Of a DNA stretch of 64,000 nucleotides, positions 12,301 to 42,336 are shown one piece after another. The stretch's first letter is position 1; each line of letters opens with the position of its first letter. This stretch comes from Trypanosoma brucei (taxonomy: Eukaryota). Position numbers and translations under genes: made by a program. The stretch covers positions 96,001-160,000 of the forward strand of contig CP000066.1 of NCBI GenBank assembly GCA_000002445.1, in the 5' to 3' direction. Below the pieces are notes generated by a model. The model ran no database searches, was not told the DNA's origin, and saw nothing but the letters and a program-made list of their open reading frames with translations.

Positions 12301-13852
12301 ATGCCACAACAGGACCCAGCCAGAATAGGACTAGCGGCGCTTTTTTTGCTACTGCGCGCTAGCTTCAAATCAACAGAGTCAGCTGAACCGGCAGCAGCAG
12401 ACAACGCCGAAGCCTACGCAACGATCTGCGCGCTCGTAGCCATAGCGAAAACGCCATACAGCGGCCCTAAAGACGACATAACCGACAGCGACATAGTAGA
12501 TGTCATATCAGCAGTAAACCTAACCGCAAGCGGCCAAAGCGTAACAGCAGCGGCAATAGAAGCGCTAGAAAGGGAATATGCGCAACTAGATGAATCAAAC
12601 GGCGCAAAACAGGCATGCACACACAAAGGCTGGGGCTTCTGCAAAAAAAAAATGCAAAATACAACAAAAATCATAACGGAAACGAGGTGTTACTAAAGTG
12701 GGCGAAGCGGAAACTCAAGAGAGAACCGACTAATCAACTTCACAGACTAGCACGCGAAGCAGTACTTTTAGAAGACGACATAGCCAGCACAGACTTTTCA
12801 AAAGACGTCCAAACGGTCCGGCAAAAACTAAAAGAGGCATTAATCGGAAAAGAAGCCATAGATTCAGTTGCTAAAACTATTCCGGACGGCAAAACAAGGG
12901 CCGGAACTTGTAGCAGCCCGGGCGGGACAAAAACGAACAACAATGCCGGGGCAAGCCTCCAACAGGATGTGATGTGCCTTTGCGGCATGCACACGGGAGA
13001 CACCGAAGGTGGTCTTAAAGTGTGCGCAAAACTTGACAGCGATCCAACTGTTGCGCTCATCTCGAACACAGACACTCAACAGGACTGGGTAAAATTCCGG
13101 GACCACTGTGACAGGGTATCAAACACAATGCATTTAACTAAAGAAACAATAAACACGGCACTGCAGAACTTTATCAAGTTAATATCTCAGCCACAAACAA
13201 CCAGTTTCGACAAAGCCTTCATTTTGGGGAAGATACACGGCACCGGCAACACAGGGTGCGACGGCGACGGCACGTCCAACAACAATGGTCGCTGCGTCCA
13301 ATACAAAAAGGCATATACAACAGAAGCCGGGACAACAATACCTTGGATAGTAGCAGTCGGACAGGCGGCGGCAGCTGTGGATAGTGTCCATAAAAAGGCG
13401 TACCAGCGCCACGCCATAAGCATGCGGCTGAGGAGCTTAAAGTAAGCTCTATAGACACTAGCAGCCGACCCCGATAAAACCACCGCCACACAGTCTGCAA
13501 CAAAACCGCAAAAAACAGCGCCCAGCGCCAAAGCTTGCGGGCAGCACATCAGAAATGAAACCTGCACAGAAAATAACTTCAAATGGGATGGAAATACTGA
13601 GGACAAAGGCACATGAAAAGTAGATGAAAGTAAAGTTAAAACTCAGACCAATACAGGAGAAGCAGGAGGAGAAGCAGGAGAAAAAACAACGGGGTGTGCA
13701 GCGCACTTCAATGATAAAAACGCTTGTGAAAAAATGAATGAAGGGAAGGGGAAACATGTATGTGCGTGGAAGAAAGACGGTGAAGGTGACAAGAATAAGG
13801 ACGAGCTTAGGTGCCGAAATAGTAGTGTTCTCGTAAATAAAAAATGGCTCTG
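12301..13852 (+). pseudogene. VSG pseudogene (frameshift plus in-frame stops in the CTD)
   Basis: ORFs 12223..12696 and 12615..13445 overlap in different frames. A signal peptide starts at MPQQDPARIGLAALFLLLRA. CTD-like sequence at 13500-13850 (CTENNFKWDGNTEDKGT*, SSVLVNKKWL) is broken by stops. Confidence 0.7.
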
Positions 13853-20510: not shown

Positions 20511-21503
20511 TCAAATGGTGGAATTAGTATTACTCACATTACCAGCAACACCAATGTCAAGTAGCAGCGAAGTGAAGTTTCCATGGACCCAGTTAAAGTG
20601 GGAATTGAGGGAAGTAATATTTGCCATCATATCCAGAAGCGCGAAAGGCGGTTTCCCAGCAGCAAAAGGTGTGATGAGGGTGGAGAAAATTTGCTGTATC
20701 TCGAGCGTCAGTTGAAAATAGAAGGCACCATGCCGGTCTTCGCCTCTCCACTCCAATATTTTTCTTGAACTCTGCACGGCGCCACTCCTATATAAGTTGT
20801 CCCTCAGTCTATTAAGGCATTCGCTTACGGAACCATTTAGTATCGTTATTGTGAGACAGCCATCCTTATACTTTTGAAGGGAACTCTCAGTCACGCTGTT
20901 TTCTAGAGGACAGGTTTGGTCACCACAACTAGCCTCAAAGTTTTCAACGGCGCTAAACTCTTGACGGCTACATTTAGCCATATCGGAATCCAGCCCTACT
21001 GCCTTCACGTCATTCCAAACAGTCTTTGTAATCACAGCAATGGCTGTATAGTATTTATTCGCTTTGATGAGAGTATTGGGTAATTCGTTCCTGACTTCCC
21101 TCACACTCTCATTAACCTCAGCAAATAATCCACCCACCTTAGCTACAAGGTCCCCCATTTCATTTCCATAGGATATAAGTTTTTCCAATTTATCATTTTG
21201 TTCTCCCATTGAGCTGCTGAAAACACTCAAGTATGTTGTGCTTTCGCCTGTTTTCCCTTCCATATCATCTAATATACGAGACGCATTTGCGTATACTTCT
21301 TCATTCACAAACAGCCTCTGCTCTCCATCAGTGTATAATTTGTTTAATGCATTTGACAAGCAATGTAGGTAGCATAACGAAACATTTATGTGTGCAAACC
21401 CCCCGACGTCCGCCACTAACCTGCATTTGCCGCCCTCTTCCTCTCCACCAATGCAAATAACAAAAAAATATAAGATAATCAACTCCACAGCTACGACTTT
21501 CAT
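20511..21503 (-). CDS. ESAG-like surface glycoprotein (ESAG1-family-like, tentative), 330 aa, apparently lacking a C-terminal membrane anchor
   Basis: It has an N-terminal signal peptide (MKVVAVELIILYFFVICIGG) and many N-glycosylation sequons. It is a paralogue of 24686..25789 and of the fragment at 24149..24562. It ends NTNSTI without a hydrophobic tail, so it is possibly truncated. Confidence 0.5.
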   Translation of the reverse strand: MKVVAVELIILYFFVICIGGEEEGGKCRLVADVGGFAHINVSLCYLHCLSNALNKLYTDGEQRLFVNEEVYANASRILDDMEGKTGESTTYLSVFSSSMGEQNDKLEKLISYGNEMGDLVAKVGGLFAEVNESVREVRNELPNTLIKANKYYTAIAVITKTVWNDVKAVGLDSDMAKCSRQEFSAVENFEASCGDQTCPLENSVTESSLQKYKDGCLTITILNGSVSECLNRLRDNLYRSGAVQSSRKILEWRGEDRHGAFYFQLTLEIQQIFSTLITPFAAGKPPFALLDMMANITSLNSHFNWVHGNFTSLLLDIGVAGNVSNTNSTI

Positions 21504-21548
21504 TGTCTACAGCCCTACACAAAAGAGGAAAAAAGTAAAACACAAACG

Positions 21549-21764
21549 TTATTCAAAAGCATAGGTTGCCAAAGGTACACAGAAATAATGGAGAAACAGT
21601 TCTCCCGACACTAGGAAAAATCGCATAAACAATATTTCTTCAAGAGCCATTAAACCAGCTACCATGTGCTTTTTCATTGTGGTGAATCCCTCATCATCTA
21701 TCATATAGTTGGCAACCTCACTTCCCTTGTGCTTTCTCCCCCTCCACCTGAAACACTCACGCAC
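21549..21764 (-). pseudogene. C-terminal fragment of another ESAG1-like family member
   Basis: The sequence ...YMIDDEGFTTMKKHMVAGLMALEEILFM parallels the C-terminus of the 367-aa paralogue (DMIDEEGFTMRKQHTLIGLIFFAAILVM). Confidence 0.45.
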
Positions 21765-24096
21765 GGTCGCATTTCAGGTCAGCAATTATCTTAATTTTCC
21801 GTTTCGTAAAGCCACTTAAATGGTTGATTTAGTTTGTTGTTTATACAGTGACGGACTTGCACCCACCCCTAATCGCTCTGTATTTTATGATGCAAGAGGC
21901 CTCAGCATCCTCTGAAACTGCGCCTGTACTAGAGTATTTATAGTACGCGAGAAACCGCTAGTAGCCTACACTGCAAATGATCTATACACGGTAACTGCAA
22001 GATATTCAACGTTCGTAATACCGAAGTTCGCGTTTTCACCGATCGTCAACTCAGCTGCGTTGGCATCCGACAAAATTATTTGGTTTTACTATTATTCCCG
22101 TATGTGCCAATATTCGACCCATAATGCAAAAGAAGAGTGCATAATGGATTAGCAGTACACGACACCCTTAGCATATTGGTGTGGAAACATATTTTTGAAC
22201 TCTTCATCTCTGGTCCTTTTGCCGTCGATATGTTTTTGATGCAGAGCACTGATTTATATAATTCCCTCCTCTATATGGGACGTTCTGGAAATTTCCCTTC
22301 GCACAAAGCTACCAACCTCTCATTCCGTACTGGAGTAATGTTATTGGACGGTAAAGCTTCTCATCACAGGAACAGGTGCTGTACACCGTGTTTAATGGCA
22401 ACACCGTATTCGATACATGTTTGTGAATGTGAGAAACGCGTCAAGCATGCAGAGCTCTTTCCATTCCCACTTCACGCACGGTCCATGCATTAAGGTCCGA
22501 CCATGACGGCACAAAGATTTGCGCGAGTACGGCCCACCAAGTCCAATTTTTACTTCGCATACAAGGTACACAGATACATCCACACTTGCACAAGCGAGCA
22601 CAGCAACAAAAAGGTGAGTTAATTTCGTGAACACACATCAGACAGACAGGACCGATGCATCCACTCATAGGTCGTACATTAGCGCGTGCCGGAGCAAGTA
22701 TGCACTTATATTTGGGAACTCAATCGTAAAAAAAATGTAAAAATGCAATTAATAAGATGTGGAAATACCAACTTTGTCGTCGGTAAGGTTGGCATCGAGT
22801 AGCAGCGAAGTGAAGTTCTTGTGGATGGCATGAAGGTGAAAGTATAAAACCTTTACTTCTTTAAGCAGGGGATAAAGAACGGAGGGCAGTAAAAAGGCAG
22901 CAAAGGATTTGACCAGAGGGGCGAGCATTCTGCTTACGCCGATCTGAAGACTGAAAGAGTAGCAGTCCTCCCTACCTCTGTTGGTGCTCCATCATAAAAA
23001 GTCTCCCATATGGTGGCCATATAATCACGTGACAACGCATTTTTGTAATATTTACCCAATCAATGACGGACGCTTTGTTTATATTGCTCTTAAACCAATA
23101 CTAACCGAGGGCAACTTAACCCGATGAAAAAATGCCACCCTAACCACTACCACATCATTTCTATTGCGTGGTCAACATGCCTTACCTCCAATGCGAAAAG
23201 TGCAGAAACATTAAAAAATTTCATCGGGGCCATCAGTCAGCATCAATAGTTTAGACATATCAACGTTTCATTACACATATAGCTGCAGTTAAAAAACTGT
23301 ACTTCTTACTAAAGGGTAAACTTCACCAGCAAATACGCCTCATATTAATATTCATTCTCTCATCTTAATTATTCATATCCACAATCTTAGATGTAATCAC
23401 CAACAGTAATGACTTTAAAGAAAATTATTCTTCCGCGCTTTCCCTCCGTCGAAAGAAATACCACGCCTCAACAATATAGTTACTTGTCGACAGCATAAAA
23501 AAATATTCCTCTTGCGATTATAAAGGACTCGAACCCCCGGAAGAAGGCAAAGAAAAGGAGTGGTTGGAGTAATTATAGTTCAAATAAACCCGCGAAACGT
23601 ATCTAATCCAACACAACCTGTCACAAACTGCGTAACCCCAATACTGCCTGAGATGAAAAAAGTGACGTTGAAGCACGAATACAGTAAGGTTATGTTAGAC
23701 ACCGCTTCGAACGGCACAAAAGATAGTTGTCCGGTAGCAATGGAAACGATAAAGGAGCTGAAGATGCCCTGTACTTTAATTGTGAGGGCGAGAGCATGGC
23801 CATTCATCCATTTAAGTACATCACTTGAGTCTTTTACAGCGTCACTAACATAGGGGACATTCCTAGGTGATTGGTGGAAGAAGTTTATAATACGGCTATG
23901 CACAACATTTATTTCAAGACAGTCATTCTTGTATTTTTTGGAGAGCGTCTTCGCTCACACCACCTAGTAGTGGACACGTATGGGAGCTACACGTATATTG
24001 AAACACTGCGGTATTTTTGACTCCCTTCAGGTCGCACTTGCGATTATCTTCAGATACTTTTCGTCCATCAACCCCTCAGACCGTTCCTGTAATCTC

Positions 24097-24562
24097 AGCA
24101 ATGGCTGTATAGTATTTATTCGCTTTGATGAGAGTATTGGGTTATTTCCTACCTCACTGCTCTTACATTCCCATTAACCTCAGCAAATAATCCACCCACC
24201 TTAGCTACAAGGTCCCCCATTTCATTTCCATAGGATATAAGTTTTTCCAATTTATCATTTTGTTCTCCCATTGAGCTGCTGAAAACACTTAAGTATGTTG
24301 TGCTTTCGCCTGTTTTCCCTTCCATATCATCTAATATACGAGAAGTATTTGCGTACACTTCCTCATTCACAAACAGCCTCTGCTCCCCATCAGTGTATAA
24401 TTTACTTAATGCATTTGAAAGGCAACGGAGATAACATACGGACTCACTTAAAGGTGCGTCACCGTGAGAATCTGTTATCAACGTACACTCACTTTCCTCC
24501 TTCCCATCAATACAGATTACAGAAAATAACGAAACAACCAATTCCACGATCGTAACTTTCAT
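24097..24562 (-). pseudogene. Truncated duplicate (N-terminal 137 codons) of the ESAG-like gene at 20511..21503
   Basis: Nucleotides about 24097-24425 are about 95% identical to about 21041-21370. ORF 24149..24562 (MKVTIVELVVSLFSVICIDGKEE...) matches the N-terminus of the 330-aa protein. Homology stops abruptly at 24097. Confidence 0.7.
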
Positions 24563-24685
24563 TACCTACAATCGCATGTGACGAGAAGCATGAGAGAGAA
24601 GCATACACACCATCAAACGAAAGCGATGGGTGCCACAAGTGTATAGCCTCAATAACAAAGATGTTGCATACAACATAACATTGAA

Positions 24686-25789
24686 TCACATAACCAGAAT
24701 TGCTGCAAAGAATATTAAACCAATTAGGGTATGTTGCTTCCTCATTGTGAATCCTTCTTCATCTATCATATCGTCGTCATCGACACTTCTCTTGCGTTTT
24801 TTCCCACTCTCTCTGAAATACCTGCGCACCATCGGGCTCTGAGTTAACAGTTCTTTTAGTTTATTTTCATACTCCACAAAGGAGGTAAGAGTTGGCTCTA
24901 CATCACGGTACTGTTGTGCAATACTTTCATATCCGTTTCTAACCAAAGTGTAATTGATGATAAGTTTGGGCACCGTGTCACTAGACATTATGGTAACGGC
25001 AGCTTCTTTACGATAGGTAACAAATCCTCCAGTAGTTCCCACTATGAAGGATCCAGCCCCCCCATTTGCAACATCTTCCGTACCCATGATCCAGCATTTT
25101 GTGTCGTTATTGTCTGTAAGTTCAACTCTCTGGTCAGTTTTATATTTATCTAGCGCAGCCAGTACACCATCATCTGACATATCTTTTATAACGGACATAT
25201 TACACTCATCTGGAGCCTTTGCTGCTTTGTGCCCAGCATCATCACTTCCACATCCATTTTCTGAAGGGGCAGACTTCTCTTTCACCAAACAACACCAATC
25301 GTTTTTGTCACCCTTTGTTTGCTCAAACAACACTACTAGATCCCTCAACACTTGTCCTATTGACAGTGATGCATTCACAACATGATAGGAAACTCTTACA
25401 ATGTTTAAAAAACTAGTATCCATTAACTGAATAGCTTTATCTGTATTGTTCATTACTTTTTCCATTTCCACATATGTTTTCTTTATATTTTCCATATCAC
25501 TTCCATTAACAACCCCTATCTTCTCCAAACCCTGCACTATTGCCTTCCATGTCCTCCCCTTTACACCATGCCTATGTCGCCACTCCCGAAACTTATCTAC
25601 CATTTCTGTAGCATTTTGGTGCTTCTTCAGAATCTCAGTGCTCACAACCCTCAAGGCATGACTGAGATTGCATAACGTTTTGGCTCCCTTGAGTGTCATG
25701 GCCTTGCCGGAAGGCTGCCCCACAACTTCCCCAATAAGGGAACCCAGCACTGTCAGACACACTGCAAGAAAAAGTGATATCACCTTCAT
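24686..25789 (-). CDS. ESAG1-like surface glycoprotein (tentative), 367 aa, with signal peptide and C-terminal hydrophobic anchor
   Basis: It has a signal peptide (MKVISLFLAVCLTVLGSLIG) and multiple NxS/T sites. An acidic stretch (KRKRSVDDDDMIDEEGF) precedes a terminal hydrophobic segment (TLIGLIFFAAILVM). It is distantly similar to 20511..21503. Confidence 0.55.
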   Translation of the reverse strand: MKVISLFLAVCLTVLGSLIGEVVGQPSGKAMTLKGAKTLCNLSHALRVVSTEILKKHQNATEMVDKFREWRHRHGVKGRTWKAIVQGLEKIGVVNGSDMENIKKTYVEMEKVMNNTDKAIQLMDTSFLNIVRVSYHVVNASLSIGQVLRDLVVLFEQTKGDKNDWCCLVKEKSAPSENGCGSDDAGHKAAKAPDECNMSVIKDMSDDGVLAALDKYKTDQRVELTDNNDTKCWIMGTEDVANGGAGSFIVGTTGGFVTYRKEAAVTIMSSDTVPKLIINYTLVRNGYESIAQQYRDVEPTLTSFVEYENKLKELLTQSPMVRRYFRESGKKRKRSVDDDDMIDEEGFTMRKQHTLIGLIFFAAILVM

Positions 25790-25970
25790 TATTTATCTAA
25801 AAACAAAACATGTTTATATGGGATAATTTAATACAGTTACATCTCATGAGGAGCTAGCACACACATGAACATAGATACACATATATACTATACCATTTTA
25901 CATACAACAACAAAGAAACGAAACAACATGACATAACATAGTATAACATAAATAGTAATGTAGAATTAAA

Positions 25971-27335
25971 CTAAAACACACAAATAAGAGATAAAATTAA
26001 TAATGTAAACCCCCCAGTTTCCACATTCAAATGAGTAAGTCCATCATTATTTACTTCAGCATTGCCACCTTCATCATCACCCTTACCTTGGCTACTTTTC
26101 CATAGCTCCGCATCACCACCAAGTTTCACCTCAAGATATATTTCCTCTGCCTCATGTTGGTACTCTTCCAACTCATGAAGATGACTGTCAGCTTCTTTGG
26201 CATATTTTGTCATTTCTTGTAGCTGCTCGGTAGCATTAGTAAGGCGGTTGTACCATGGAATTCCACCATTTTCAAGTGTGTGATTGTAACTGACACACGT
26301 GAATCCAGCAGTATGGCCCGTGCATGTGCGATTTTTGTTTTTTCCCGTTCTCACATAACCAAAAATACCCTTCACCTGATATTCATCCTGTTCCAAATTC
26401 ACTAATGCATCAAACTGAGCTAGTGCACTCTTTAAGGTTTTCACATTCGATGCAACATTTTTGTACACACAAGCTTTACTAATCACATCCCATGCCTCAG
26501 TGTGGTTGTATTTTATTTTTGCAGGATCACAAATTCGCCCGTCCCCATCGCAATGTTCAGCCATCATTGTCCAGTTACCATTTTCCGGCCTTCTTATTTC
26601 ATCTCTACAAGGACAATTGAACCCATTATATATATTATTATTACCTCCATCCTCTTCAAGGTTTTCTTTCCTTTTGATCTCTTCAGTTATAACAATGGCT
26701 TCTCCCACACATAGACAGAAAAAGTCATTGATTAACGTCTTTCCAACTGACTTGTCTCCATAAGAACCGCAACTCGTACCTGCATTATCAATACTATTGA
26801 ACAGCAGTGACTTGTTTCCCCTCATGGCTTGCTCCAGAGTTTTATTCTCATTTCTTGCAACATCCACAGCATCGCCATACACAGCCCTCAGCATATTTTC
26901 TTCAGCAGACCGACCAGCATTCAAGGCTTTCGTCCTATTCATTTCCATTTCTTCCTTCAGCGCTTTCGCCTTCTCAAACAGTTTCTCTATATTCTGATAC
27001 GCCGTCGTGCTCTTAGCTGATTTATTGGAACCTTTATTAGCACCCGCAGCTTCTGCCTCACTGACCATTTCCTCCAACTTCTTCACAATCTCACCCTCCT
27101 TTTCACGATTCTTAAAGGAAGGTTGTGGGGCTTCTGCTTGCGTAATTCTGTAAATCTTGCACAGTGTCTCGAACTCGCCAACGTTATGGTACTTATAGCC
27201 GTCACCGATATAGTCCGTAATCTCACTCCAGTCAACCGACTCTGTTGTCCATCTCCCCGCATCCAAATCGCCCTGAAAGGAGGGAGACAAAACAGTCACA
27301 AACAGCCCAACAGTAAACACTATTTCATACCTCAT
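25971..27335 (-). CDS. ESAG2-like / VSG-related GPI-anchored surface protein (tentative), 454 aa
   Basis: It has a signal peptide (MRYEIVFTVGLFVTVLSPSFQG) and a Cys-rich, N-glycosylated extracellular domain. Its hydrophobic C-terminus (GGFTLLILSLICVF) is typical of a GPI signal. It lies between the ESAG8-like and ESAG1-like genes, as in a bloodstream expression site. Confidence 0.5.
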   Translation of the reverse strand: MRYEIVFTVGLFVTVLSPSFQGDLDAGRWTTESVDWSEITDYIGDGYKYHNVGEFETLCKIYRITQAEAPQPSFKNREKEGEIVKKLEEMVSEAEAAGANKGSNKSAKSTTAYQNIEKLFEKAKALKEEMEMNRTKALNAGRSAEENMLRAVYGDAVDVARNENKTLEQAMRGNKSLLFNSIDNAGTSCGSYGDKSVGKTLINDFFCLCVGEAIVITEEIKRKENLEEDGGNNNIYNGFNCPCRDEIRRPENGNWTMMAEHCDGDGRICDPAKIKYNHTEAWDVISKACVYKNVASNVKTLKSALAQFDALVNLEQDEYQVKGIFGYVRTGKNKNRTCTGHTAGFTCVSYNHTLENGGIPWYNRLTNATEQLQEMTKYAKEADSHLHELEEYQHEAEEIYLEVKLGGDAELWKSSQGKGDDEGGNAEVNNDGLTHLNVETGGFTLLILSLICVF

Positions 27336-30300
27336 TGTGATTATGTTTTTACTTTTATCAGTTAAGCAAATTGGGGCAAAAGCTTATTATCACAGTCGTT
27401 ATTGTTATTGGTAGACACATTCAACAAAATATACACATTAAAATATCAAAACAAAAGCCAACAACTGGCACAAAACAATCACAGTAGCACCCAACAAGGG
27501 GGGAAACACATCCCAAAATACATTCACATGGGTTCTCTCTCCTCAAGTTGGATATCAACATTAAACACCCTCATAGTTGTTTTCCCATTGGTTACCTCAC
27601 TCTTCCTAATTTCTAAATTCAAAAAATTCACTTTCTTAATCTTCATGCTAGTTTCCTCACTTTCCCAACTGAGCTGCGCTGCCGCTTTCTTGGTTTCCTC
27701 AATGAGTTTATCCACTACCATAATGAGTACCGGCACATTCATCTTACGTTATTTCCAAACCCTCTCTCGGTTTCATTAGCTTCAGTTATTACTTTATGAC
27801 TTTATTGGCTAGCACATTACGCGCTTTATTTGCATGCATGTATTACCCTTCTCTATTGCAATCAACTCTACTGCTGGGCCTCATTTAGCATATCATCCCT
27901 TCTTTATACATGTGCTGACAACACTCTTCGTTGCCCTCTCTGCGTGCTTGCACAGCTCCTTGCCTCCCATTTTCTTAAATCACACACTAGTAAAGATAAA
28001 AGTTGGATTTTCAAAACACTCTCATTGGACACCTCTGCTCGTAAATGAGGCCTTTGATCGCACTGTGACATTACGGGATATTATGTCAGTCACCAACACA
28101 CAAAACAGTCCCAGAATAAAGAGTGGCCTCCCCTGTCAGCACCCTCATTTAGATTATTTGCCACTCACCATAATTACCATCCTTATAGATACACTCGTAA
28201 CAACGGAAGTTATATACGTAGCTACCCGTCCTATCAGTAAACTCTTACCACCCTTAATTCACATGCAAAGTGCGTTAACACACTCCACCACCCAAAACAT
28301 AGATGATGGAGGGATAGTCATATTTATAATAACTCACCAATAAGATAACTCAAACAGGAGCACCTCGACAGAAATATATGATGAGTTAAGTAACGTTCTC
28401 TCCATTCAACCGACCTTACCAGATGTCAAACCCAGGACGACCAACATGGCAAACATCAGGCTGGTGCAGCGAAAGGTGTTATACGACTTGGAGAGTGTTC
28501 AGTGGCTAGCACCGATGAAGACTGGCATAACACCATTCCCTAAGTGCGGACAGCTTCTTTTTGGTGCCAAGATTTAGCACAAGATAAGTTTCAAGATCGA
28601 AAGTTACAACCTCCACAGATGAAATTGCCACACCGAGATCGGCGCAGCCATGCCATGGAAATGCCATAACTTCCCATCCAACAATTTGTTGTATCGCCCA
28701 TACAACGTAAAGGGCAATCGCCGATTCGCCTTTGTGTACGGAAGGCTGAGAAAAACGGTATATACAGTCAGTAGTTTGTTGCAATTACGTCAATATAATC
28801 ATCTGTAACTGAACCCGTGGAGTCTTTAAAGCCATAATGCGCCTTAAAGTTTTGTCTGACAGCGTTTTTTAGTCGCTTAATAATCTCTTTTCCCCCCTTG
28901 ACCCGCTGCCGTGAAGTCTCCGTGACGTGGTGTGTCTGAATGCACTTCTTCCCCCTTTCCTAAGGTATCCCAATTGCACTTTTTTAAATGTGCCCCATCA
29001 ACTCCCACCCGAGTGAAGTGCAGTAGTCGTATCAAATCCGTGGGTCTGTAACCTGAGTGTATCCATGTTGGATGGAGAATAGAGGAACAACAGGAGGCAA
29101 CACCATAACACGCCTTCCTACTAGTAAGGTATAAGTGGAGGACTCGCACCGCCCACCTCTTGGTCCCCTATCTGGACGATACTACCACCCTTTCCCAGCA
29201 ATCCTGTCCTTGTGGAACGCTTTTCGCGACGAAAACTCCCAACACCTGGGGTTGGTTCCTTTTTTGAAGGGGCGAACGTTGGCAATCTTAACAGAAGGGA
29301 AAACGGTTGCGGTGTTGGCGCCGTCTTCGGTAACGCTGAGTTCTGCTTTGTAACAGACAAGTTTGGCGGGTTACTTTTCGTGCACGTTCAGTCGCTTAAC
29401 ATACCACCTCCCCTTTCATTCGAAGGGAAGTCTACTTTCCAAGTTAACACAACAACTTCCCTTATTTTTCAGTGGTTCCTGTTCTCATGTTCAGTGTGAC
29501 GATTTCACGTTCCTTCTCCGAAGGATCACTTTTGACGTCACCCGCTATGGTGCGCATCCGATACCCCCACTGATTTTATTTGCTCCAGCAGACGCCTCTC
29601 ATTACCCTTTTGACGACCTTAACAGCGCACCGTTTCCATAATTATGGTCAATTTTCTCTGCGCTACGGTAGCAGTAACCCCCTGAGCTCGAGGTGTACAC
29701 TTCCATTGGTATAACTCGCCAAATCCATCATCGAATCTATCCAGCTTTGATTGTTATTAAAGTTACTCACGACCATATACGCTACCACATCGCCATCCCC
29801 AAAGCTGCAGATATCAGAAAAAATATATACTCTCATTCAGAGTGAGCACCCCCAGAAGTTTCACATGTGCCACGACCCGTGAAACCCGAACAGGCATCAA
29901 ATAATGCCTCCTTTTTGAGTTTTTTTAGGCCATTACAGCGTTTTGAGTCCGTTGTTGCTGTGTCCATCGTTCTAAGACGGATAGATTCCAGGCCCTCAAC
30001 ATCGACAACCCTGTTATTCACTAATTTTCTGCCCTACCGCATGGGGGCTCACCCCTTTCTCGCCCACTTCACCTCTTTACAACCAATCTGATAACAGGAA
30101 GAAAAAGACGCATTTTAGGAGTTTGTTAAGCACCAATGAGTGCAAATGAAATAAACACAGGAGAGCCTTTTCTCTCGTGGACACTGATACGAAATCATAA
30201 AACTACTGTATAAATAAGTGAAAGTATATGAGGTATTATCGCATAAAAGAAGGATGTTAGGAGAAGAGGGGTAGAAATTGACACTAGGCTATGTAAGTTT

Positions 30301-30587
30301 TTAAAGGCCGCGGGTAGTGTCCCCGCTAGCTCAGAATATGCATGTATTTTGGATACCCGCGACATGTGCTTATATGTGTGACCTTCCTTATCATTTTATT
30401 TAATTACAGTGTATATTATTATACTTCCCAGACACAGAATATGTATCTCTATGGTGGAAAATATTAAGTTAATTGCATAATAATTTTTACAAACACTACC
30501 CTAGTCGTGGTGTAGTATTAATAAAAGAATATTAGACGACAAAAGAAGATAGTTCCCAGTGGGATTTTGAGTCTAGACGATCGTCGC

Positions 30588-32708
30588 CTACATATATTCA
30601 TCATCCATCCTTTTAACGTAGCAAGCATGAGTTTCATCTGTTACTTCCACATCAACACCTCTGTCCATCAAACCCTCAACCAAATTCCTGTCTGCATTGT
30701 TGTCATCGATGTAGAGAACACACAGGCGTGGGAGATTCATGAATTCGACAATACCATTCCTTATTGTCCCGCAATTCCGTAAATCGAGAGTCAGCAACCC
30801 CCTGCAATCTCGCTGTCCATGAATGTACCATAGTCTCGTGCAATTCCGCAAATCAAGCGTTCTCAAGTTGCCGCACCCATCCAACCACAAGTCCGTGATA
30901 TTTTCACAGTTGCTTAGGTAAAGGTTTGTGAGATTCCGGCACTCGCACCCATTCAACCAAACCTCCCTCAGGCTCACACAATCGTTAAGCTCCACTGTCA
31001 TCAGATTTGAGCAGCCACTTAACATACTGAAATCATCTATTTTGCTGCTCCCTGTAAGCCTCAGCGTCTTCAGATTCTTGCATGCGCCTAAAACACTCAG
31101 GTCTGGATTCCCTCCACAGTTGCACAAATTTAGTGTCTCTAAGTTCGTGCAACCACGGAGTGCACTGATGTCTTCCAACGTTTTACAATCAATCATCTCT
31201 ACAGTTGCAAGCTTCTTGCATTCCTCCACACCAGTAAGGTGTTTCAGTCTCGCGCACTCCGAAAGATTCAACATTTTCAGACTTCCACAATTCCTTAATG
31301 GCCTCAAATCGGACAAACTGATGCACCCGGTAAAATCCAATGTGGTGATATCCTTACACTCCCTTAGCAGCGTGATGTCCTTGACATTTTTACATCCTCT
31401 GAGTATCAATGTCCTCAATCTTGTGCACCCATCTAGAGCGTACAGTCCCTTCATCCTTGCACATCCAGACAAGTTCAGTGTGACGAACCCTTCGAATTCA
31501 CGCAGAAACATAACATCCACATCCCTCACAACCACACCACCCAAATTGAGCCCTGTTAGCTTCGGGTTCCCGCATACTTGGCGGACGCCAACCTCAATAT
31601 TGCGACTCCCTCCAATTGAGAGGTACTCCAGAGTCTTCATTTTCGCCAGTGGTTGAATATCAGTAACAGCGAGGCAATTTTCGCAGTTCAAATGAACCAG
31701 TTGCTTGAATGTACTGACTTTAATGACACACTCATCATCAATGCATGTACTGGCCAAATTCAGTTCCCTCAAGTTCGGAATCGCAGCCAGCTCCTCCAGC
31801 CCCTCCTTCATGTTAATGCACTTCTCAAGCGACAACACCTCCAGCGGACTAATTTTTCCCAATGCTTTTATATCAGAGATATTCATACACTCACTGCAAT
31901 CCAAATCAGCCAAATGCGTACTCCCGCTGAGACTCAAGATGCACGCGTCGTTAGCCGCGGTGCCTCTCAAACTCAACTTCCTCACGTTGGGCAGTGCACA
32001 AATGTGTTCCAAACCCTTTTTAATATTTTTACAACCCGATAGGGAGAGCTCCTCGAGTGTTTTTATCTCTGCTACAGGTGAAATGTCCGTGATATGATGG
32101 CAATTATTGCAGCTCAGATGCAAGAGTATCCTATTACTGCTGATCTCAACGACGCACTCATCGTCCAACTCCGTGTTGTCCAAAGTCAATTTCCGTAAAT
32201 TACTCAACGTCATAATATGCTCCAAATCAGTCTTCAACTTGCTATATCCGCTGAGATTGACTTCCTCCAAAGTTGGAACTCCAGAGAGTGCCCGAATTCT
32301 TGACAGATCCACGCAATTTTCCAAATCCATCACAGTCCAATTACTCTCCTCTGCTTTAAGGACCTGCTCATATATTTTGGACGGCACCTTTCCTCCCATT
32401 CGCTTCGTTAATTTCACAGGATCCACACTGCCGCTACAATCCTCACTCCCGATAAATGTTGTAGCGACTGAGCTTCTTCTTCTGCACCTCGCAAACCGGG
32501 TGTTGTCCAACTCATAACGGAACGCAGGCCGACGGGAACATACGCTTATATCGCATAGAGGACACACTGATAAATCGCGATAGCACGTGCTACACAGAAC
32601 GTGCTCACATGGCAACACTTCAATGGGAACCGCACACTTCATTAGGCACTGGGGACACCCTACTTCTTCCCTCACTGGGCATTCCGTCACCCAGGAAATC
32701 TTCACCAT
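30588..32708 (-). CDS. ESAG8-like protein: N-terminal C3HC4 RING finger plus a long leucine-rich-repeat array (about 706 aa from MVKISW)
   Basis: RING motif CPQCLMKCAVPIEVLPCEHVLCSTCYRDLSVCPLCD. More than 18 tandem LRRs of about 23 aa (LxxLxLxxCxxIxDxxxL). The long ORF 30588..33089 has a non-conserved-looking 127-aa N-terminal extension. The start was set at Met128 by codon counting from the ORF end, with ±3 nt uncertainty. Confidence 0.7.
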   Translation of the reverse strand: MVKISWVTECPVREEVGCPQCLMKCAVPIEVLPCEHVLCSTCYRDLSVCPLCDISVCSRRPAFRYELDNTRFARCRRRSSVATTFIGSEDCSGSVDPVKLTKRMGGKVPSKIYEQVLKAEESNWTVMDLENCVDLSRIRALSGVPTLEEVNLSGYSKLKTDLEHIMTLSNLRKLTLDNTELDDECVVEISSNRILLHLSCNNCHHITDISPVAEIKTLEELSLSGCKNIKKGLEHICALPNVRKLSLRGTAANDACILSLSGSTHLADLDCSECMNISDIKALGKISPLEVLSLEKCINMKEGLEELAAIPNLRELNLASTCIDDECVIKVSTFKQLVHLNCENCLAVTDIQPLAKMKTLEYLSIGGSRNIEVGVRQVCGNPKLTGLNLGGVVVRDVDVMFLREFEGFVTLNLSGCARMKGLYALDGCTRLRTLILRGCKNVKDITLLRECKDITTLDFTGCISLSDLRPLRNCGSLKMLNLSECARLKHLTGVEECKKLATVEMIDCKTLEDISALRGCTNLETLNLCNCGGNPDLSVLGACKNLKTLRLTGSSKIDDFSMLSGCSNLMTVELNDCVSLREVWLNGCECRNLTNLYLSNCENITDLWLDGCGNLRTLDLRNCTRLWYIHGQRDCRGLLTLDLRNCGTIRNGIVEFMNLPRLCVLYIDDNNADRNLVEGLMDRGVDVEVTDETHACYVKRMDDEYM

Positions 32709-35700
32709 TATGGGAGTGGGGTCAGCTAAACCGTTAACACACGCAAACGGAGAGAATGAGACAGTGTAAAAGCACAGCAATACTACTTTATTTGTTCGTC
32801 TGCAGGCGCATGTGTAGGCGTATGTAAGTGTGGATGAATTTATATTGATACACGTGCCCGGATTAAATATGAAGTAAGGGTTGGCAACAAAGCATTTACA
32901 TGTGTTGTCCGGTAAAAGCGTTGGTAGTAGGAGGAGTTGGTGTAGTTTTACTGCTTTGAACAGGGCATGACACGAATTGAAGGCTGGGAAGCCACTGCAC
33001 TTAGATGTGGTAAGTGTACACGGTGTCAAGGAACTTTTTGATAGCAGAGTAACTGTGACAGCGGTCAGAATTGCCCTGTAGACATACATTCACATATGCT
33101 TCCTCCAGACGTCGGTTTGGAAAATCAAGCCTCCTGTGGGTTTCTTTCTGATTTCCGAATCGACTTCGTTGGTGCATGCTTTTTACCCGAAGAGCGTCTG
33201 GTGTCTGGTTGCGAAGCGTTTTTATCTTTCCTGGCCCCTCAAAGTTTTTCAATCTACCCCTACATTTCTGATGAACGGCATCTCTTTTTATTGGACTGAC
33301 CCCAGCATGCTGTTGCACCAAAAGGTTACATCGTGTTTACAGTGTCAGTCTTTCCTGGGTGGACGATGCTTCACCAAATCTTCTTTGAAAATTCTCCCCT
33401 CCATATCCAGAGAGTTTTGATAAGAATATGATTACAAACTCTCTGGATGAACACTTCACTCCTGCGTTCCCTATTCTCAATTTTAATCGCATTTGCGACT
33501 GACCTCTCTAAATCTCCACTTTCGCTTTGACCCTCGTCAGCCGTCTCCTTCGTATTTATTGCCGAGTTTCTCCTTTACAGCAATATCCCTCCAGCAAATC
33601 TGGTTGTGCATGAGAGACAAGTGGCCCTTTTCAAGTTTTCCCTTTCTCTGCGGGTTTGGCCGGTTTTCTCACACGGCGCGTTTAAGTCTCCACTCCTTTC
33701 TTTTCTCTGACTCTCATTTACAGGACCTCTCCTCCCTTCGTGCATTATGAACTCTTATCGCCGTGGATCCTCCTCACCCATTGATTCGCTATCTCCCCGA
33801 TGGACGCCGAGGCAAGCTGGAATCAAATCCCAATCCTCCTTGTCCTGTTGGTAGCCTTACCCCAATCGAGCACACTTTCGAAGCACATAACACGACACAT
33901 TTGACCCCCTCAGGAGTCCTAAGTTAACCAAAATACGAACCCTTAGAAAGTTAATGCATTCATAAACCTTAAACCCCGCTGGCAGCATGAGCACACTTAC
34001 ATATCGAAACCACTTAACCTCTCGCAGCCATTGAGCCATTCCACCGTGGCTCAACATTACCGCAAACAACAAAGAGAAAAATCTCCCACTTCCTTGCTAC
34101 TTCCCCTTATTTTGTGTCACGTAACTATCACCTACAACGTCCACACTGCCAAGAAACCGCTTCCAAGCCCTCCTACATCTGCATGCGACTAATTACCCCT
34201 TTCTTACACGCATCTATATGGGTATAGTTCCTCCCACCAAATTAAGAGATCAAGAAAACCCCACACCCTCCACATCCGAACACCCTCGCATATACAAAAA
34301 ATAAACTGCCTGCAGTCCCTGCTCGACCCTTTTCTATGGTTCCAAACAATAATCCTGCTTAGTCTCCGCGATGTAACGAAGTTCCTCTCCTATCTCCCTT
34401 CTCCATCTTCCAGATCCTCCTCCCTTGACCCAAGCTATGCTTTACTCTCTGCCTTTCCTCGCACACATATTCTGAGGTGCGCACCACGACTATCAACCAC
34501 TGGTAACCCTGTCTCACAACCACATGTATGGCATTCCCAACTTCATACACAGGACAGAACGTACACCCCTAAAGTGAAAAAAAAACCTTGTGCACACAAT
34601 TCCTTCACAATGGTGATTGTGCTTACGCCCCTCAACCGCTTCTCTTGGCGGCCCTGCGTTGAAGTCCGCTCTCACCAAACTCTGCTCGCACGAGCCCTTC
34701 CTAACCAAAATTAAACTTCACAAACACGGGGAGTAGGATATGTTGCTTCTCATTGACCATTTCCTCCGCCTTCCGACTAACATCTGTCCCCATATCCCCA
34801 CCACACCTAACACTAAATACGAGGAATTTTGCATATGTTCTATGAGTCCGCACGCCTTGCATCTAATTGCTTATAATTCAACCCACTTCATCACGCTCAA
34901 TCCGAAAAGTCTAGGAATGCGACTCCAAAGTGTGGCACCACCTCCTTCCAGGTTATACACCCTCTTTTCACTTGAAGGAAGGAGCTGATGCCGCATAAAA
35001 ATAGTTTACTTTGGGAAATTCTAGACGACAGTATTGTGATCGTCGTCATTGCTGTTACCGTGTCTCCACTACTGTCTCAGCGCTTTGGACGTGAGCTCGT
35101 TTCACCTACCGGTCAGACGCATCTGGTAACGGCCATACTGGCGCTTGTAGCGTTGGGTGTTGCCCCATGCTCTTTATATCACACAAACCTGGCAGTGAGT
35201 AGTTTCTGCTAATATGCAATGAATCCTCGAGGCAGCTTCCGTTGCTGCTGTGCCTCAGCTGTTGTTGTATGCGTATATCTTCCGTGATTATTTTTACCGC
35301 CTGAGAAAGGAAATCTTTGCAGAAAAAATGTTTGGAAGCTTTGCTCATGCAAGCGACATCAGGTAGTAACGTCCGACTTGGCTACGACTACACCACGGTT
35401 AAAAGGCTATTGTCCCGATTCATGCCGGGTACGCAGAAGGTGCACCACGGGGCAACCGTCACCATTGGAAACCCTTAGAAAACTGCAGATGGGCGACCAC
35501 CTGGAGCTTATCATCTCCTTCCACACCCTCACTCGTGATGTCATCATTCCAAAAGCAGTGGAAAAGAAGGTATAGTCGGGAAGCGGAGCTAATGTAGAAT
35601 TCAAACTATCAAACATATAGTGTAAATTTTGGTCCAAACGCTTAACGACCCAGTGCACATACGCACAACGGCGCGTCACCTTCGCAACACCGGTCAAGAG

Positions 35701-36746
35701 AGAGAGATGTGCCTGCCGACTGCATCAAAGCAGTTGGCACAGTAGGCAACAAAAAGATAATACGCGGAAAGCGTAAACTAGATATTGAAGGTTTGCCCAC
35801 CCACTTCACAACCGCATTCCCCACGGAACAAGTGGCAGCGGCCCATTTAGACACATCGCCCGGTAAACGAGAATAACTAAGTTGAGAATAGGGACGAGCG
35901 ACAGCGCTCGATCCTCAGTTGCTAACAAATGCCCTGAGTCCCTTTCCCTTCCCTTACTAAGCGTCCCAGGACACGACCGCCGACCTCCAACACAGGTTCT
36001 CTACGGAAGGATAAACGATGAAGAGCAGGGACGCGGATGACACTGCAAAAAGGATTGGACACTGCGACTATGATGAGAATCCTCCAAGGCTTCGAGCAGC
36101 TCGTTGAAAACGAGACGTGGAGCATTTTGGAGGATGCTTTAAGGACACTCTGATACTGACGCCCAGCGACGCCCGCTTCGAAATGAACTTATATTCCTCC
36201 CGACAATTTATTGGTGATCCGTGTTTTGTGACACCCATGGAAAACATGGCGGATGTTGCGGGAAGAGGCGCTGGCAGCCGACACCACCGATCACACACCG
36301 CTTGAACATCCTAGCCCATTTCCACGCAGAAGTACTCCGTACTCAACTAACGAACAACCAGGTTCTCACTACCAACAGTTGACACCCTGACCTTCTCGCT
36401 AACATTGTTGGCTCATAACGGCGTTGTTGTCGAAGCACCCTCCCGACCACAGCTACTTCCTATTCTTTTTCTCCACAGATATGGAACACCAATAAAAATA
36501 AAGCTGATGCACAAATTATGAACACCGGTGACGAAGCGGTGAGAACACCGACGCAAACACCTTTTTAATGCACTAGATGTAAGCGCGCAAATAGGCATCT
36601 AGCAAACTCAAAGTGTTCATAACAACGCACTATTAGAGCGTATGTGCATGTTTGCATACATATGTTAAAGCAAAGAAAACAAAAGAGCAAACCATCTCTG
36701 TCGACGTACCAGTCCTTTCCTATGCGTTGTTGTTACTGGAAACTTT

Positions 36747-37100
36747 TTAATCCCGAGCGTCACCGATGCACTTCACCGACACGACGACTAACACTAATAC
36801 CATCGAAACGACTCCCATCCATGCCAGGAGCGCAGCACGAGTCGAGAGCTCCCCCTCTCCTGCTTCTGAACTTCCAAAAGTGGGGCACTCAATTCCACAA
36901 ATATATGTGTGATCGCCATACATTTCGTCGTCGTCTTTCGGGCAAACATCATTACTCGGATTTGCAGCTGTGACTGCATCCGTTGGTGCCGCAGCAGCGG
37001 AGCCGGGTGAGCCCGGTACGGCTGAAAAGGGGTTTGGGTTGACTTCATTCTCCGCCGTGGTGACAGCATTCGCCTCTTCCGGTTTGACGGCTGCGGCCAT
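36747..37100 (-). CDS. Small hypothetical protein with C-terminal TM segment (117 aa)
   Basis: The ORF is Ala/Pro-rich with an acidic stretch and a terminal hydrophobic helix (LLAWMGVVSMVLVLVVVSV). It is isolated in an ORF-poor region and may be spurious. Confidence 0.25.
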   Translation of the reverse strand: MAAAVKPEEANAVTTAENEVNPNPFSAVPGSPGSAAAAPTDAVTAANPSNDVCPKDDDEMYGDHTYICGIECPTFGSSEAGEGELSTRAALLAWMGVVSMVLVLVVVSVKCIGDARD

Positions 37101-42287: not shown

Positions 42288-42294
42288 CCACACA

Positions 42295-42334
<40 letters not shown>
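42288..42334. repeat. (CA)n dinucleotide microsatellite
   Basis: acacaaacacacacacacacacacacacacacacacacacacacc. Confidence 0.9.

Positions 42335-42336
<2 letters not shown>

What the first reader, a model, noticed from the sequence alone, without database searches (positions are those of the whole stretch)
30588..33089. ESAG8-like RING/LRR gene with unusually long LRR array and an ambiguous N-terminus
The LRR region has at least 25 repeat units, whereas canonical ESAG8 has about 18. The continuous ORF adds a 127-aa N-terminal leader rich in Cys (CTLTTSKCSGF...CKCF...CININ). The translation start and the copy-number expansion need to be determined. ESAG8 is a nucleolar regulator linked to differentiation control.
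Basis: partly seen in the sequence, partly recalled or inferred. Interest (0 to 1): 0.5.

Follow-up and report, generated by a model that had tools for sequence, protein, structure and literature searches.

The report
Known ESAG8-like gene, disputed start codon
This is the already annotated Trypanosoma brucei gene Tb927.3.580, a published chromosome-internal relative of ESAG8; its repeat array is only two units longer than ESAG8's, and the one real loose end is that public gene models disagree (833, 706 or 580 residues) on where translation starts.

Summary
The 833-codon ORF at 30588-33089 (minus strand) is real. The window is T. brucei TREU927 chromosome 3, 96,001-160,000, and the gene is Tb927.3.580, 'LRRP, putative'. 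The ESAG8 relationship holds. One collinear alignment runs from the RING to the C-terminal cap (28% identity, E 1e-64). Among 282 fetched proteins only ESAG8 matches the RING/linker region. Jackson et al. 2013 already named this gene as one of ESAG8's two closest relatives. 'Unusually long' does not hold: counted the same way on AlphaFold models, this protein has 24 LRR turns and ESAG8 has 22. There is no DNA-level tandem duplication. The 127-residue leader is most likely untranslated. It has no homologue or domain, no Glu, and intergenic-like codon statistics. It shows 0 synonymous and 4 non-synonymous changes against T. b. equiperdum. Jensen et al. 2014's major spliced-leader site falls at least 278 nt downstream of its ATG. 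I favour Met128. It is the first AUG after the proximal splice-site interval for four of five candidate AGs. The RING segment also evolves as coding (pN/pS 0.28). Verdict: ordinary and already known, with a useful annotation caveat.

The parts
30588..33089 (-). Full open reading frame: 833 codons plus stop. Equals chr3 126588-129089 of Tb927_03_v4, gene Tb927.3.580.
   Evidence: ORF. (100% identity to XP_843654.1 over 706 aa; 833-aa model RHW73682.1). (the coordinate offset of 96,000 is proven by four published uORF intervals that are exact ATG..TGA ORFs).
32709..33089 (-). 127-codon 'leader'. Best read as untranslated 5' sequence that happens to be open.
   Evidence: No Pfam hit. No homologue among 282 proteins. 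No Glu, and rich in T/P/F/Y/C. Coding score -0.02 bits/codon against at least 0.07 for every CDS window. 0 synonymous and 4 non-synonymous differences from T. b. equiperdum. It lies 5' of Jensen 2014's major SL-site bracket.
33919..33920 (-). AG of the distal spliced-leader acceptor implied by the TriTrypDB v4.2 5'UTR (UTR starts at 33918, 1587 nt long).
   Evidence: Vasquez 2014 supplement gives location 126588-129918(-) and 5'UTR 1587 nt. An AG lies immediately 5' of 33918.
32741..32780 (-). Polypyrimidine tract (75% Y), the strongest within 900 nt upstream of the RING.
   Evidence: 70% Y in the 50 nt before the AG at 32726-32727.
32726..32727 (-). Predicted proximal trans-splice acceptor AG. 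It would give a 17-nt 5'UTR before Met128.
   Evidence: Sequence. It lies inside the 32683-32810 interval to which Jensen 2014's major SL site can be bracketed. The exact site is inferred and was not read from data.
32706..32708 (-). ATG of Met128: start of the 706-aa GenBank/RefSeq model and the favoured start.
   Evidence: It is the first AUG after 4 of the 5 AGs in the bracket. It places the RING 18 residues from the N-terminus, compared with 10 in ESAG8 and 5 in T. vivax RING-LRRPs.
32553..32657 (-). C3HC4 RING finger: C-x2-C-x12-C-x-H-x2-C-x2-C-x6-C-x2-C (residues 18-52 of the 706-aa protein).
   Evidence: Pattern match. Pfam zf-C3HC4 19.6 bits against a cut-off of 21; ESAG8 scores 23.1. 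It aligns with the ESAG8 RING.
32475..32534 (-). Basic linker RR-x13-RCRRR (706-aa residues 59-78), a candidate bipartite nuclear localisation signal.
   Evidence: Sequence. RR aligns with ESAG8 RR at 51-52. Jackson 2013 states that the gene has an NLS. Function not tested.
32328..32330 (-). ATG of Met254: start of the 580-aa TriTrypDB v4.2/v5 model, which omits the RING and linker.
   Evidence: CDS length 1742/1743 nt. uORF 4 of Jensen 2014 ends on the A of this ATG.
31491..32342 (-). LRR 1-12: four 71-residue triplet super-repeats (23+24+24 residues), the type shared with the trypanosome LRRP family.
   Evidence: AF2 strands, pLDDT 80-97. Unit table, with identity peaks at lag 3 and lag 6. 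Best hits are trypanosome LRRPs and ESAG8.
30729..31490 (-). LRR 13-23: eleven uniform 23-residue units, as in the C-terminal half of ESAG8.
   Evidence: ESAG8 is the best trypanosome match and is in register to the C-terminus.
30588..30728 (-). LRR 24 / C-terminal cap (LPRL...GVDVEV), a 17-residue tail and the stop codon.
   Evidence: The cap motif is shared with ESAG8 and other LRRPs.
20511..27335 (-). Downstream neighbours on the same strand: ESAG2 (25971-27335), ESAG11 (24686-25789) and ESAG1 (20511-21503). Together with the LRRP they follow the order of the distal half of a bloodstream expression site.
   Evidence: Pfam VSG_B and ESAG1 hits. Gene names and order Tb927.3.560/.570/.580. BES order from Hertz-Fowler 2008.

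Best explanation
The feature is Tb927.3.580, a chromosome-internal, bloodstream-stage-enriched paralogue of the expression-site gene ESAG8.

Shown. It encodes an N-terminal C3HC4 RING pattern, a basic linker and a 24-turn leucine-rich-repeat solenoid. The solenoid has four 71-residue triplet super-repeats, then eleven uniform 23-residue units, then a cap. This arrangement is collinear with ESAG8 end to end. The mRNA is about 47-fold more abundant in bloodstream than in procyclic forms and is poorly translated.

Inferred, about 0.65-0.7. Translation starts at Met128, giving the 706-residue protein. The 127 codons upstream are untranslated sequence that stayed open by chance. They contain the polypyrimidine tract and AG of the proximal trans-splice site.

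Inferred, about 0.35. The protein acts in the nucleus as a RING-type ubiquitin-ligase-like adaptor, with the LRR concave face binding the partner. This is by analogy with nucleolar ESAG8, which binds a Pumilio protein. mRNAs spliced at a distal site carry about 17-20 upstream ORFs, which would explain the very low translation efficiency.
For: Identity. 100% match to XP_843654.1 on the 1,653,225-bp chromosome 3. Four published uORF intervals for Tb927.3.580 are exact ORFs at window+96,000. Neighbours match Tb927.3.560/.570/.590.

ESAG8 kinship. The exhaustive HMMER search recovers ESAG8 at E 2.8e-60. A single collinear BLASTP HSP covers query 28-687 and ESAG8 21-629. The RING/linker segment hits only ESAG8. 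ESAG8 is the best trypanosome match for the uniform C-terminal array. Published by Jackson 2013.

Repeat count. 24 against 22 turns.

Leader not coding.. Jensen 2014's uORF list omits the closed 24-nt uORF at 32811 but includes the one at 32682. With their 'no minimum size' scan from the major SL site, this brackets that site to 32683-32810.

Met128. It is the first AUG after 4 of 5 AGs in the bracket. The only strong polypyrimidine tract precedes the AG at 32726-32727. Segment 128-253 has pS 0.036, equal to the LRR body, and pN/pS 0.28. In every RING-LRRP recovered, the RING starts 2-18 residues from Met1.

Expression..

ESAG8 biology. Review PMC6562600.
Against: TriTrypDB v4.2/v5 places the start at Met254 with a 1587-nt 5'UTR. 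I could not see the evidence behind that model.

Bloodstream RNA coverage over that 'UTR' (27.6 RPKM) equals the CDS (25.4). Transcripts containing the leader therefore exist, or precursors contribute to the signal.

Footprint counts are too low (0.89 and 0.68 RPKM) to locate initiation.

The SL-site bracket is deduced from a uORF list, not read from the 5'UTR table. That table was truncated in the held copy.

Substitution counts are small: 4, 6 and 22. Fisher p = 0.04 for leader against the rest.

The RING scores just under Pfam's cut-off and AlphaFold did not fold it (pLDDT 25-40).

No localisation, partner or ligase activity is known for this protein.
Confidence: 0.72

Rival explanations
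1. The main product is the 580-residue LRR-only protein starting at Met254, as in TriTrypDB v4.2/v5. The RING/linker segment is then 5'UTR, or is used only in a minor isoform.
For: Two independent studies used this model. Curators may have had SL or profiling data that I could not see. Jensen 2014 kept Met254 as the main start even though their own major SL site lies upstream.
Against: A ribosome scanning from any mapped SL site meets Met128 and/or several other AUGs first. The segment keeps all eight zinc ligands after divergence to 28% identity from ESAG8. It shows a coding-like pN/pS of 0.28, with pS equal to the body. Jackson 2013 treats the RING and NLS as part of this gene. No polypyrimidine/AG signal was examined or found just upstream of Met254.
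Confidence: 0.18
2. The full 833-residue protein is made. The Cys-rich, hydrophobic-start leader would be a real N-terminal extension such as a targeting sequence, translated from the distally spliced mRNA.
For: The frame is open in both TREU927 and T. b. equiperdum. The chance of this is about 0.001 per gene. The distal 5' end at 33918 puts ATG 33089 on an mRNA, and RNA coverage there equals the CDS. The first 17 residues are hydrophobic (sequence).
Against: Eleven upstream AUG-initiated ORFs of at least 9 nt precede ATG 33089 on that mRNA. There is no homologue or domain. The leader has no Glu, a pyrimidine-driven composition and an intergenic-like coding score. All 4 substitutions are non-synonymous. 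The gene is absent from Nilsson 2010's table of N-terminal extensions. Jensen's major SL site lies 3' of the ATG. The RING would sit 145 residues in, unlike every relative.
Confidence: 0.05
3. Alternative trans-splicing yields two or more isoforms with different N-termini. The distal site gives a uORF-laden, translationally repressed mRNA. The proximal site gives an efficiently read Met128 mRNA, and there may be an LRR-only form. RING content and protein output would then be stage-regulated.
For: Two different 5' ends are reported for the same gene: 33918 in TriTrypDB v4.2 and 32683-32810 in Jensen 2014. TE is 0.035 with 17 uORFs. Alternative splice sites are widespread in T. brucei (Nilsson 2010).
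Against: The two ends come from different studies and pipelines, and one may simply be wrong. No isoform-resolved data were available. The gene is not listed among the alternatively spliced or N-terminally extended proteins that I could search.
Confidence: 0.2
4. The gene is a decaying relic of an ancient expression-site-like block. It is transcribed but makes essentially no protein and has no function.
For: Very low translation efficiency and footprint density. It is embedded among VSG pseudogene-like ORFs and ESAG relatives. Jackson 2013 describes it as T. brucei-specific.
Against: The 2.1-kb frame is intact in two strains. pN/pS is 0.16 over the LRRs, with substitutions 2/8/18 by codon position. 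Jensen 2014 flags it as not a pseudogene. The mRNA is robustly bloodstream-regulated in four data sets.
Confidence: 0.08

Closest known systems
ESAG8 (expression-site-associated gene 8; e.g. P26337, CAQ57457, CAQ57303)
   Same: N-terminal C3HC4 RING with identical ligand spacing except loop 1 (12 against 13 residues). A basic linker. Triplet-type LRRs followed by uniform 23-residue LRRs. The same C-terminal cap. Collinear over 660 residues. Both mRNAs are bloodstream-stage enriched.
   Different: Only 28-31% identical, whereas BES copies are 95-97% identical to each other. It is 76 residues longer: 12 triplet-type units against about 9, and 11 uniform units against about 12, for a net +2. It has a 17-residue C-terminal tail. 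It lies about 128 kb into chromosome 3 next to housekeeping genes, not in a telomeric Pol I expression site. Its RING scores below the Pfam cut-off while ESAG8's scores above it.
Tb927.1.3670 (the other chromosome-internal RING/NLS LRRP named by Jackson 2013)
   Same: Reported to share the RING, the NLS and closest-relative status to ESAG8.
   Different: I could not retrieve it with the tools available, so no direct comparison was made.
Trypanosome LRRP family without RING (LRRP1 1448 aa, Tb927 537-aa and 735-aa LRRPs, T. congolense and T. vivax LRRPs)
   Same: The 71-residue triplet LRR super-repeat and the C-terminal cap. 31-34% identity over LRR 1-12.
   Different: They lack the RING and the long uniform 23-residue array. 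Their match to the C-terminal half is weaker than ESAG8's.
T. vivax RING-LRRPs (P0003, P0057, P0058, P0064; 1235-1289 aa)
   Same: A complete C3HC4 pattern at the extreme N-terminus followed by LRRs. About 26% identity over 67% of the query.
   Different: Nearly twice as long, with an acidic spacer of about 200 residues. Their RING region does not align significantly with this one and does not reach E <= 0.01 in Pfam.
LRR-plus-E3 ubiquitin ligases in other lineages (human LRSAM1; bacterial IpaH/SspH effectors). Named from general knowledge and not tested here.
   Same: An LRR recognition domain coupled to a ubiquitin-ligase module. This is the working analogy for the mechanism.
   Different: Different domain order or a different E3 fold. 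No detectable homology beyond generic LRRs. The fold search returned only generic LRR solenoids such as Roco, internalin A and TLRs.

Membership tests
ESAG8 (sensu stricto, BES gene) | N-terminal C3HC4 RING finger | tested here: met
   All eight ligands are present with ESAG8-like spacing. Pfam zf-C3HC4 scores 19.6 bits against a cut-off of 21; ESAG8 scores 23.1.
ESAG8 (sensu stricto, BES gene) | Nuclear localisation signal and nucleolar accumulation | not testable with these tools
   The basic motif RR-x13-RCRRR aligns with ESAG8's basic stretch. Jackson 2013 states that an NLS is present. No localisation data were found.
ESAG8 (sensu stricto, BES gene) | LRR array of ESAG8 type (triplet units, then uniform 23-residue units, then cap), collinear with ESAG8 | tested here: met
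   24 against 22 turns.
ESAG8 (sensu stricto, BES gene) | Located in a telomeric bloodstream expression site between ESAG4 and ESAG3 | tested here: not met
   The position is chr3:126,588-129,089. The gene is flanked by an adenosine transporter and a DEAD-box helicase on one side. Jackson 2013 calls it chromosome-internal. The downstream order ESAG2-ESAG11-ESAG1 does mirror a BES.
ESAG8 (sensu stricto, BES gene) | Membership of the tight BES ESAG8 sequence clade | tested here: not met
   28-31% identity to ESAG8, against 95-97% among ESAG8 copies.
ESAG8 (sensu stricto, BES gene) | Interaction with the Pumilio protein PUF1 | not testable with these tools
   Known for ESAG8 only.
Trypanosome LRRP family | 71-residue triplet LRR super-repeat and conserved C-terminal cap | tested here: met
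   Annotated as LRRP in GenBank.
RING-type E3 ubiquitin ligases | Cross-brace zinc-ligand pattern C3HC4 | tested here: met
RING-type E3 ubiquitin ligases | Profile score above the curated family threshold, and a confidently folded domain | tested here: inconclusive
   19.6 bits against 21. The AF2 pLDDT is 25-40 over the RING with a shallow alignment.
RING-type E3 ubiquitin ligases | E2 binding and ubiquitin transfer | not testable with these tools

The most novel reading that the evidence does not exclude
The chr3 block LRRP(ESAG8-like)-gap-ESAG2-ESAG11-ESAG1 is a chromosome-internal counterpart, either progenitor or relic, of the distal half of a bloodstream expression site. Its ESAG8-like gene is controlled by a choice between a distal trans-splice site (uORF-laden, TE 0.035) and a proximal one (Met128 is the first AUG). 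That choice would set whether, and how much, RING-containing protein is made in bloodstream forms. The current TriTrypDB-style 580-aa model would then hide the RING from genome-wide screens and tagging designs.
Probability: 0.2. Interest if true: 0.5.

Novelty: already known. Interest (0 to 1): 0.22.

Why it matters
There is little here for discovery. The gene, its family, its ESAG8 kinship and its stage regulation are all published.

The practical value is an annotation warning. Three public models (833, 706 and 580 aa) differ on whether the protein has a RING finger at all. The model used in at least two translatome/transcriptome studies omits it. Anyone tagging, knocking out or classifying this gene, or asking how ESAG8 arose from internal LRRP genes, needs the right N-terminus.

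The collinearity of the locus with the ESAG8-3-2-11-1 end of expression sites is a small extra clue about expression-site origin. I did not find it discussed in the papers I could read.

Tried and rejected
1. Word-indexed protein searches with the full protein, the N-terminal half, and an ESAG8+query alignment. None returned ESAG8 or Tb927.1.3670. Only the exhaustive HMMER search did.

2. Foldseek against the PDB. It returned only generic LRR solenoids and gave no functional lead.

3. Tandem Repeats Finder on the gene and on the whole window. No DNA-level repeats were found, so recent unit duplication is rejected.

4. Direct splice-site coordinates. The Kolev 2010 supplements have no entry. 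The Siegel 2010 supplements are not held. Nilsson 2010 lists only regulation. Jensen 2014's 5'UTR and start-codon tables are truncated in the held copy. Parsons 2015 is not held. The proximal SL site is therefore bracketed indirectly.

5. Kozak context. T. brucei has no general consensus, only a +5C bias in abundant mRNAs. None of the three AUGs has +5C, so this is uninformative.

6. Pfam on ORFs in the 3.2-kb gap between the LRRP and ESAG2 and in the 17.8-kb region upstream. Nothing was found. An ESAG3 remnant could not be tested for lack of an ESAG3 sequence. The tool refuses frames with stop codons.

7. Leader as signal peptide or Cys-rich domain. Considered and rejected on composition, lack of homology and the substitution pattern.

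8. Met150 as start. Rejected because it would cut the RING after its first two cysteines.

Full report
WHAT IS THERE. The coordinates delimit, on the minus strand, an uninterrupted ATG-to-stop frame of 833 codons. Pfam finds a long leucine-rich-repeat region (LRR_4, E 1.7e-35, 11 stretches) and a weak RING signal near the N-terminus.

IDENTITY. [quoted passage not shown] That protein lies on a 1,653,225-bp contig, which is chromosome 3.

Jensen et al. 2014 list four upstream ORFs for Tb927.3.580 at Tb927_03_v4:128682-128620, 128556-128512, 128515-128414 and 128371-128330. After subtracting 96,000, each is an exact ATG...TGA ORF on the window's minus strand. The window is therefore chr3:96,001-160,000 and the gene is Tb927.3.580.

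The neighbours agree. ESAG1 (PF03238), an unassigned 367-residue ORF and a VSG_B-domain ORF lie downstream on the same strand. These match the annotated Tb927.3.560 ESAG11 and .570 ESAG2. A nucleoside transporter lies upstream, matching Tb927.3.590, the adenosine transporter.

IS IT ESAG8-LIKE? Yes, and this is published. An exhaustive HMMER search of 1.84 billion representatives gave 37,339 LRR hits. The top ranks are trypanosome LRRPs, and the ESAG8 cluster (P26337, plus BES copies CAQ57457 and CAQ57303) appears at E 2.8e-60.

BLASTP against ESAG8 gives one collinear alignment, query 28-687 to ESAG8 21-629, at 28% identity and E 1e-64. It runs from the RING to the C-terminal cap.

When the protein is split, the RING/linker segment (1-122) matches only ESAG8 among all 282 proteins fetched. 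LRR 1-12 match trypanosome LRRPs generally, with ESAG8 at 34.4% identity, the highest of the named hits listed. For LRR 13-24, ESAG8 is the best trypanosome match and is in register to the C-terminus.

Both proteins have the pattern C-x2-C-x12/13-C-x-H-x2-C-x2-C-x6-C-x2-C. Pfam zf-C3HC4 scores 19.6 bits here and 23.1 for ESAG8, against a cut-off of 21.

Jackson et al. [quoted passage not shown]

The gene is not an ESAG8 in the strict sense. It is 28-31% identical, where BES copies are 95-97% alike, and it is not in a telomeric expression site.

IS THE ARRAY UNUSUALLY LONG? No. An AlphaFold2 model has pLDDT 80-97 across the solenoid. It shows concave-face strands at 24 regular positions (residues 126-664 of the 706-aa protein) plus a cap strand. 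ESAG8 modelled with the same alignment shows 22.

The units fall into four 71-residue triplets (LRR 1-12, with identity peaking at lags 3 and 6), eleven uniform 23-residue units (LRR 13-23) and a cap. ESAG8 has roughly three triplets and twelve uniform units. The net difference is two units, which matches the two one-unit gaps in the pairwise alignment.

The motif scan gives 26 hits because LRR 20-22 each contain two LxxLxLxxC half-motifs. The '18' for ESAG8 was not counted in the same way.

Tandem Repeats Finder sees no DNA repeat in the gene and no two units exceed 54% identity. There has been no recent expansion. Other family members are much longer (LRRP1, 1448 aa).

THE N-TERMINUS. Three public models exist:
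- 833 aa in T. b. equiperdum (RHW73682.1).
- 706 aa from Met128 in GenBank/RefSeq TREU927.
- 580 aa from Met254 in TriTrypDB v4.2/v5. Vasquez 2014 give location 126588-129918(-), a 5'UTR of 1587 nt and a CDS of 1742 nt. Antwi 2016 give an ORF length of 1743.

Evidence against the 833-aa reading:
- The leader has no domain and no homologue.
- It has no glutamate and a pyrimidine-driven T/P/F/Y/C composition.
- Its codon-usage score is -0.02 bits/codon. That is below all 14 CDS windows (at least 0.07) and within the intergenic range.
- It shows 0 synonymous and 4 non-synonymous differences from T. b. equiperdum. The rest of the gene shows 17 and 11 (Fisher p 0.04).
- Upstream of ATG 33089 the strand is purine-rich, at 25-47% pyrimidine.
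- On the distally spliced mRNA, whose 5' end at 33918 is preceded by an AG, eleven AUG-initiated ORFs of at least 9 nt come before it.
- Jensen et al. scanned from 'the major SL addition site' to the CDS start with no minimum uORF size. Their list begins at 32682 and omits the closed 24-nt uORF at 32811. Their major site must therefore lie between 32810 and 32683, at least 278 nt 3' of that ATG.

An open run of 127 codons has a chance of about 0.001 per gene. That is odd for one gene but expected several times per genome.

Met128 against Met254. The bracket contains five AG dinucleotides. Four lie 5' of the Met128 ATG. The one at 32726-32727 follows the only strong polypyrimidine tract (70-75% pyrimidine) and would leave a 17-nt UTR with Met128 as the first AUG.

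The Met128-Met253 segment keeps all RING ligands despite ancient divergence from ESAG8. Its pS of 0.036 equals that of the LRR body, and its pN/pS is 0.28. Its coding score is 0.066.

In ESAG8 and in the T. vivax RING-LRRPs the RING begins 2-10 residues from Met1. Here it begins at 18 from Met128 but at 145 from the first ATG.

I therefore favour Met128, at about 0.65-0.7. I could not see why TriTrypDB chose Met254, and ribosome footprints are too sparse to decide: 0.89 RPKM over the CDS and 0.68 over the 'UTR'. Kozak context is uninformative in this organism. The existence of two reported 5' ends leaves alternative trans-splicing open.

EXPRESSION AND LIKELY ROLE. The transcript is real and stage-regulated:
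- 3.2-fold up in cultured bloodstream against procyclic forms.
- Almost absent from procyclic tag libraries.
- 'Robustly up' in long slender forms by spliced-leader trapping, together with its ESAG2 and ESAG11 neighbours.
- 25.4 against 0.54 RPKM in the Vasquez data, with translation efficiency only 0.035.

[quoted passage not shown] By architecture, this paralogue most plausibly works the same way. A RING module and a basic nuclear-targeting linker are attached to an LRR solenoid that holds a partner, possibly as a ubiquitin-ligase-like adaptor. That step is inference. No localisation, partner or activity is known for this protein. The RING is sub-threshold in Pfam and was not confidently folded.

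CONTEXT. On the minus strand the order is LRRP, a 3.2-kb gap, ESAG2, ESAG11, ESAG1. Hertz-Fowler et al. 2008 give the conserved expression-site order as ESAG7, 6, 5, 3, 4, 8, 3, 2, 11, 1. This internal block is therefore collinear with the distal half of an expression site. It ends at a convergent switch opposite plus-strand VSG-like ORFs. I found no discussion of this in the papers I could read. I could not test the gap for an ESAG3 remnant.

VERDICT. The finding is a correct sighting of a known, annotated and published gene. The claim of an unusually long array does not survive like-for-like counting. The N-terminal ambiguity is real and affects whether the annotated protein has its RING finger. 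It is an annotation issue that existing SL-seq tracks or one tagged cell line could settle. Novelty: already known. Interest: low.

Noticed in passing
window 20511-33089, minus strand: The gene string is ESAG8-like LRRP, a 3.2-kb ORF-poor gap, ESAG2, ESAG11, ESAG1. This is collinear with the distal half of a bloodstream expression site (ESAG8, 3, 2, 11, 1). The LRRP, ESAG2 and ESAG11 genes are listed as bloodstream-upregulated. This suggests an internal counterpart of half an expression site.
   Followed up: partly
window 27336-30587: This gap is where a BES would carry ESAG3. It has no ORF above 169 aa and no Pfam hit. An ESAG3 remnant could not be tested because no ESAG3 sequence was obtainable.
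   Followed up: partly
window 33090-50934: This 17.8-kb stretch lies between the LRRP and the adenosine transporter. It has no ORF above 151 aa and no Pfam hits. GC skew changes sign at about 43-44 kb, and a (CA)23 microsatellite sits at 42289-42335. It is probably a divergent strand-switch / transcription-start region. TriTrypDB's distal 5' end of Tb927.3.580 (33918) lies inside it.
   Followed up: partly
window 32331-33918, minus strand: The annotated 1587-nt 5'UTR carries 17 uORFs by Vasquez 2014 (20 by my count). None is scored as translated. The gene's translation efficiency in bloodstream forms is only 0.035, even though the mRNA is about 47-fold higher than in procyclics.
   Followed up: partly
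window 30801-31007 (LRR 20-22; residues 568-636 of the 706-aa protein): Each 23-residue unit here is two 11-12-residue LxxLxLxxC half-repeats. The AlphaFold model places extra beta-strands every 11-12 residues (pLDDT 71-86). This is an unusual local variation of the solenoid that is not seen in the ESAG8 model.
   Followed up: no
proteins P0003, P0057, P0058, P0064 (T. vivax): These T. vivax LRRPs of 1235-1289 aa carry a complete C3HC4 RING pattern at residues 5-39. The RING-plus-LRR architecture is therefore not confined to T. brucei, although their RING region does not align significantly with this gene's.
   Followed up: partly
window 4001-5380, 12615-13445 (plus strand) and 9425-10990: VSG_B-domain ORFs, one of them truncated, lie on the plus strand facing the ESAG string. 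This implies a convergent strand switch near 18-20 kb. The 521-aa ORF at 9425-10990 has no Pfam hit.
   Followed up: no
locus L001 (T. b. equiperdum CM010674.1) against window 20588-43089: The orthologous locus is syntenic (LRRP, ESAG2-like, 366-aa ORF, ESAG1). The sequence 3' of the LRRP gene diverges 2-3 times faster (2.7-3.4%) than the gene and its 5' flank (1.0-1.4%).
   Followed up: no
P0067, P0265, P0266 (T. b. equiperdum): Several LRRP-family proteins in the T. b. equiperdum assembly are labelled 'paraflagellar rod component'. Their TREU927 counterparts are labelled LRRP, so this is likely automated annotation transfer.
   Followed up: no
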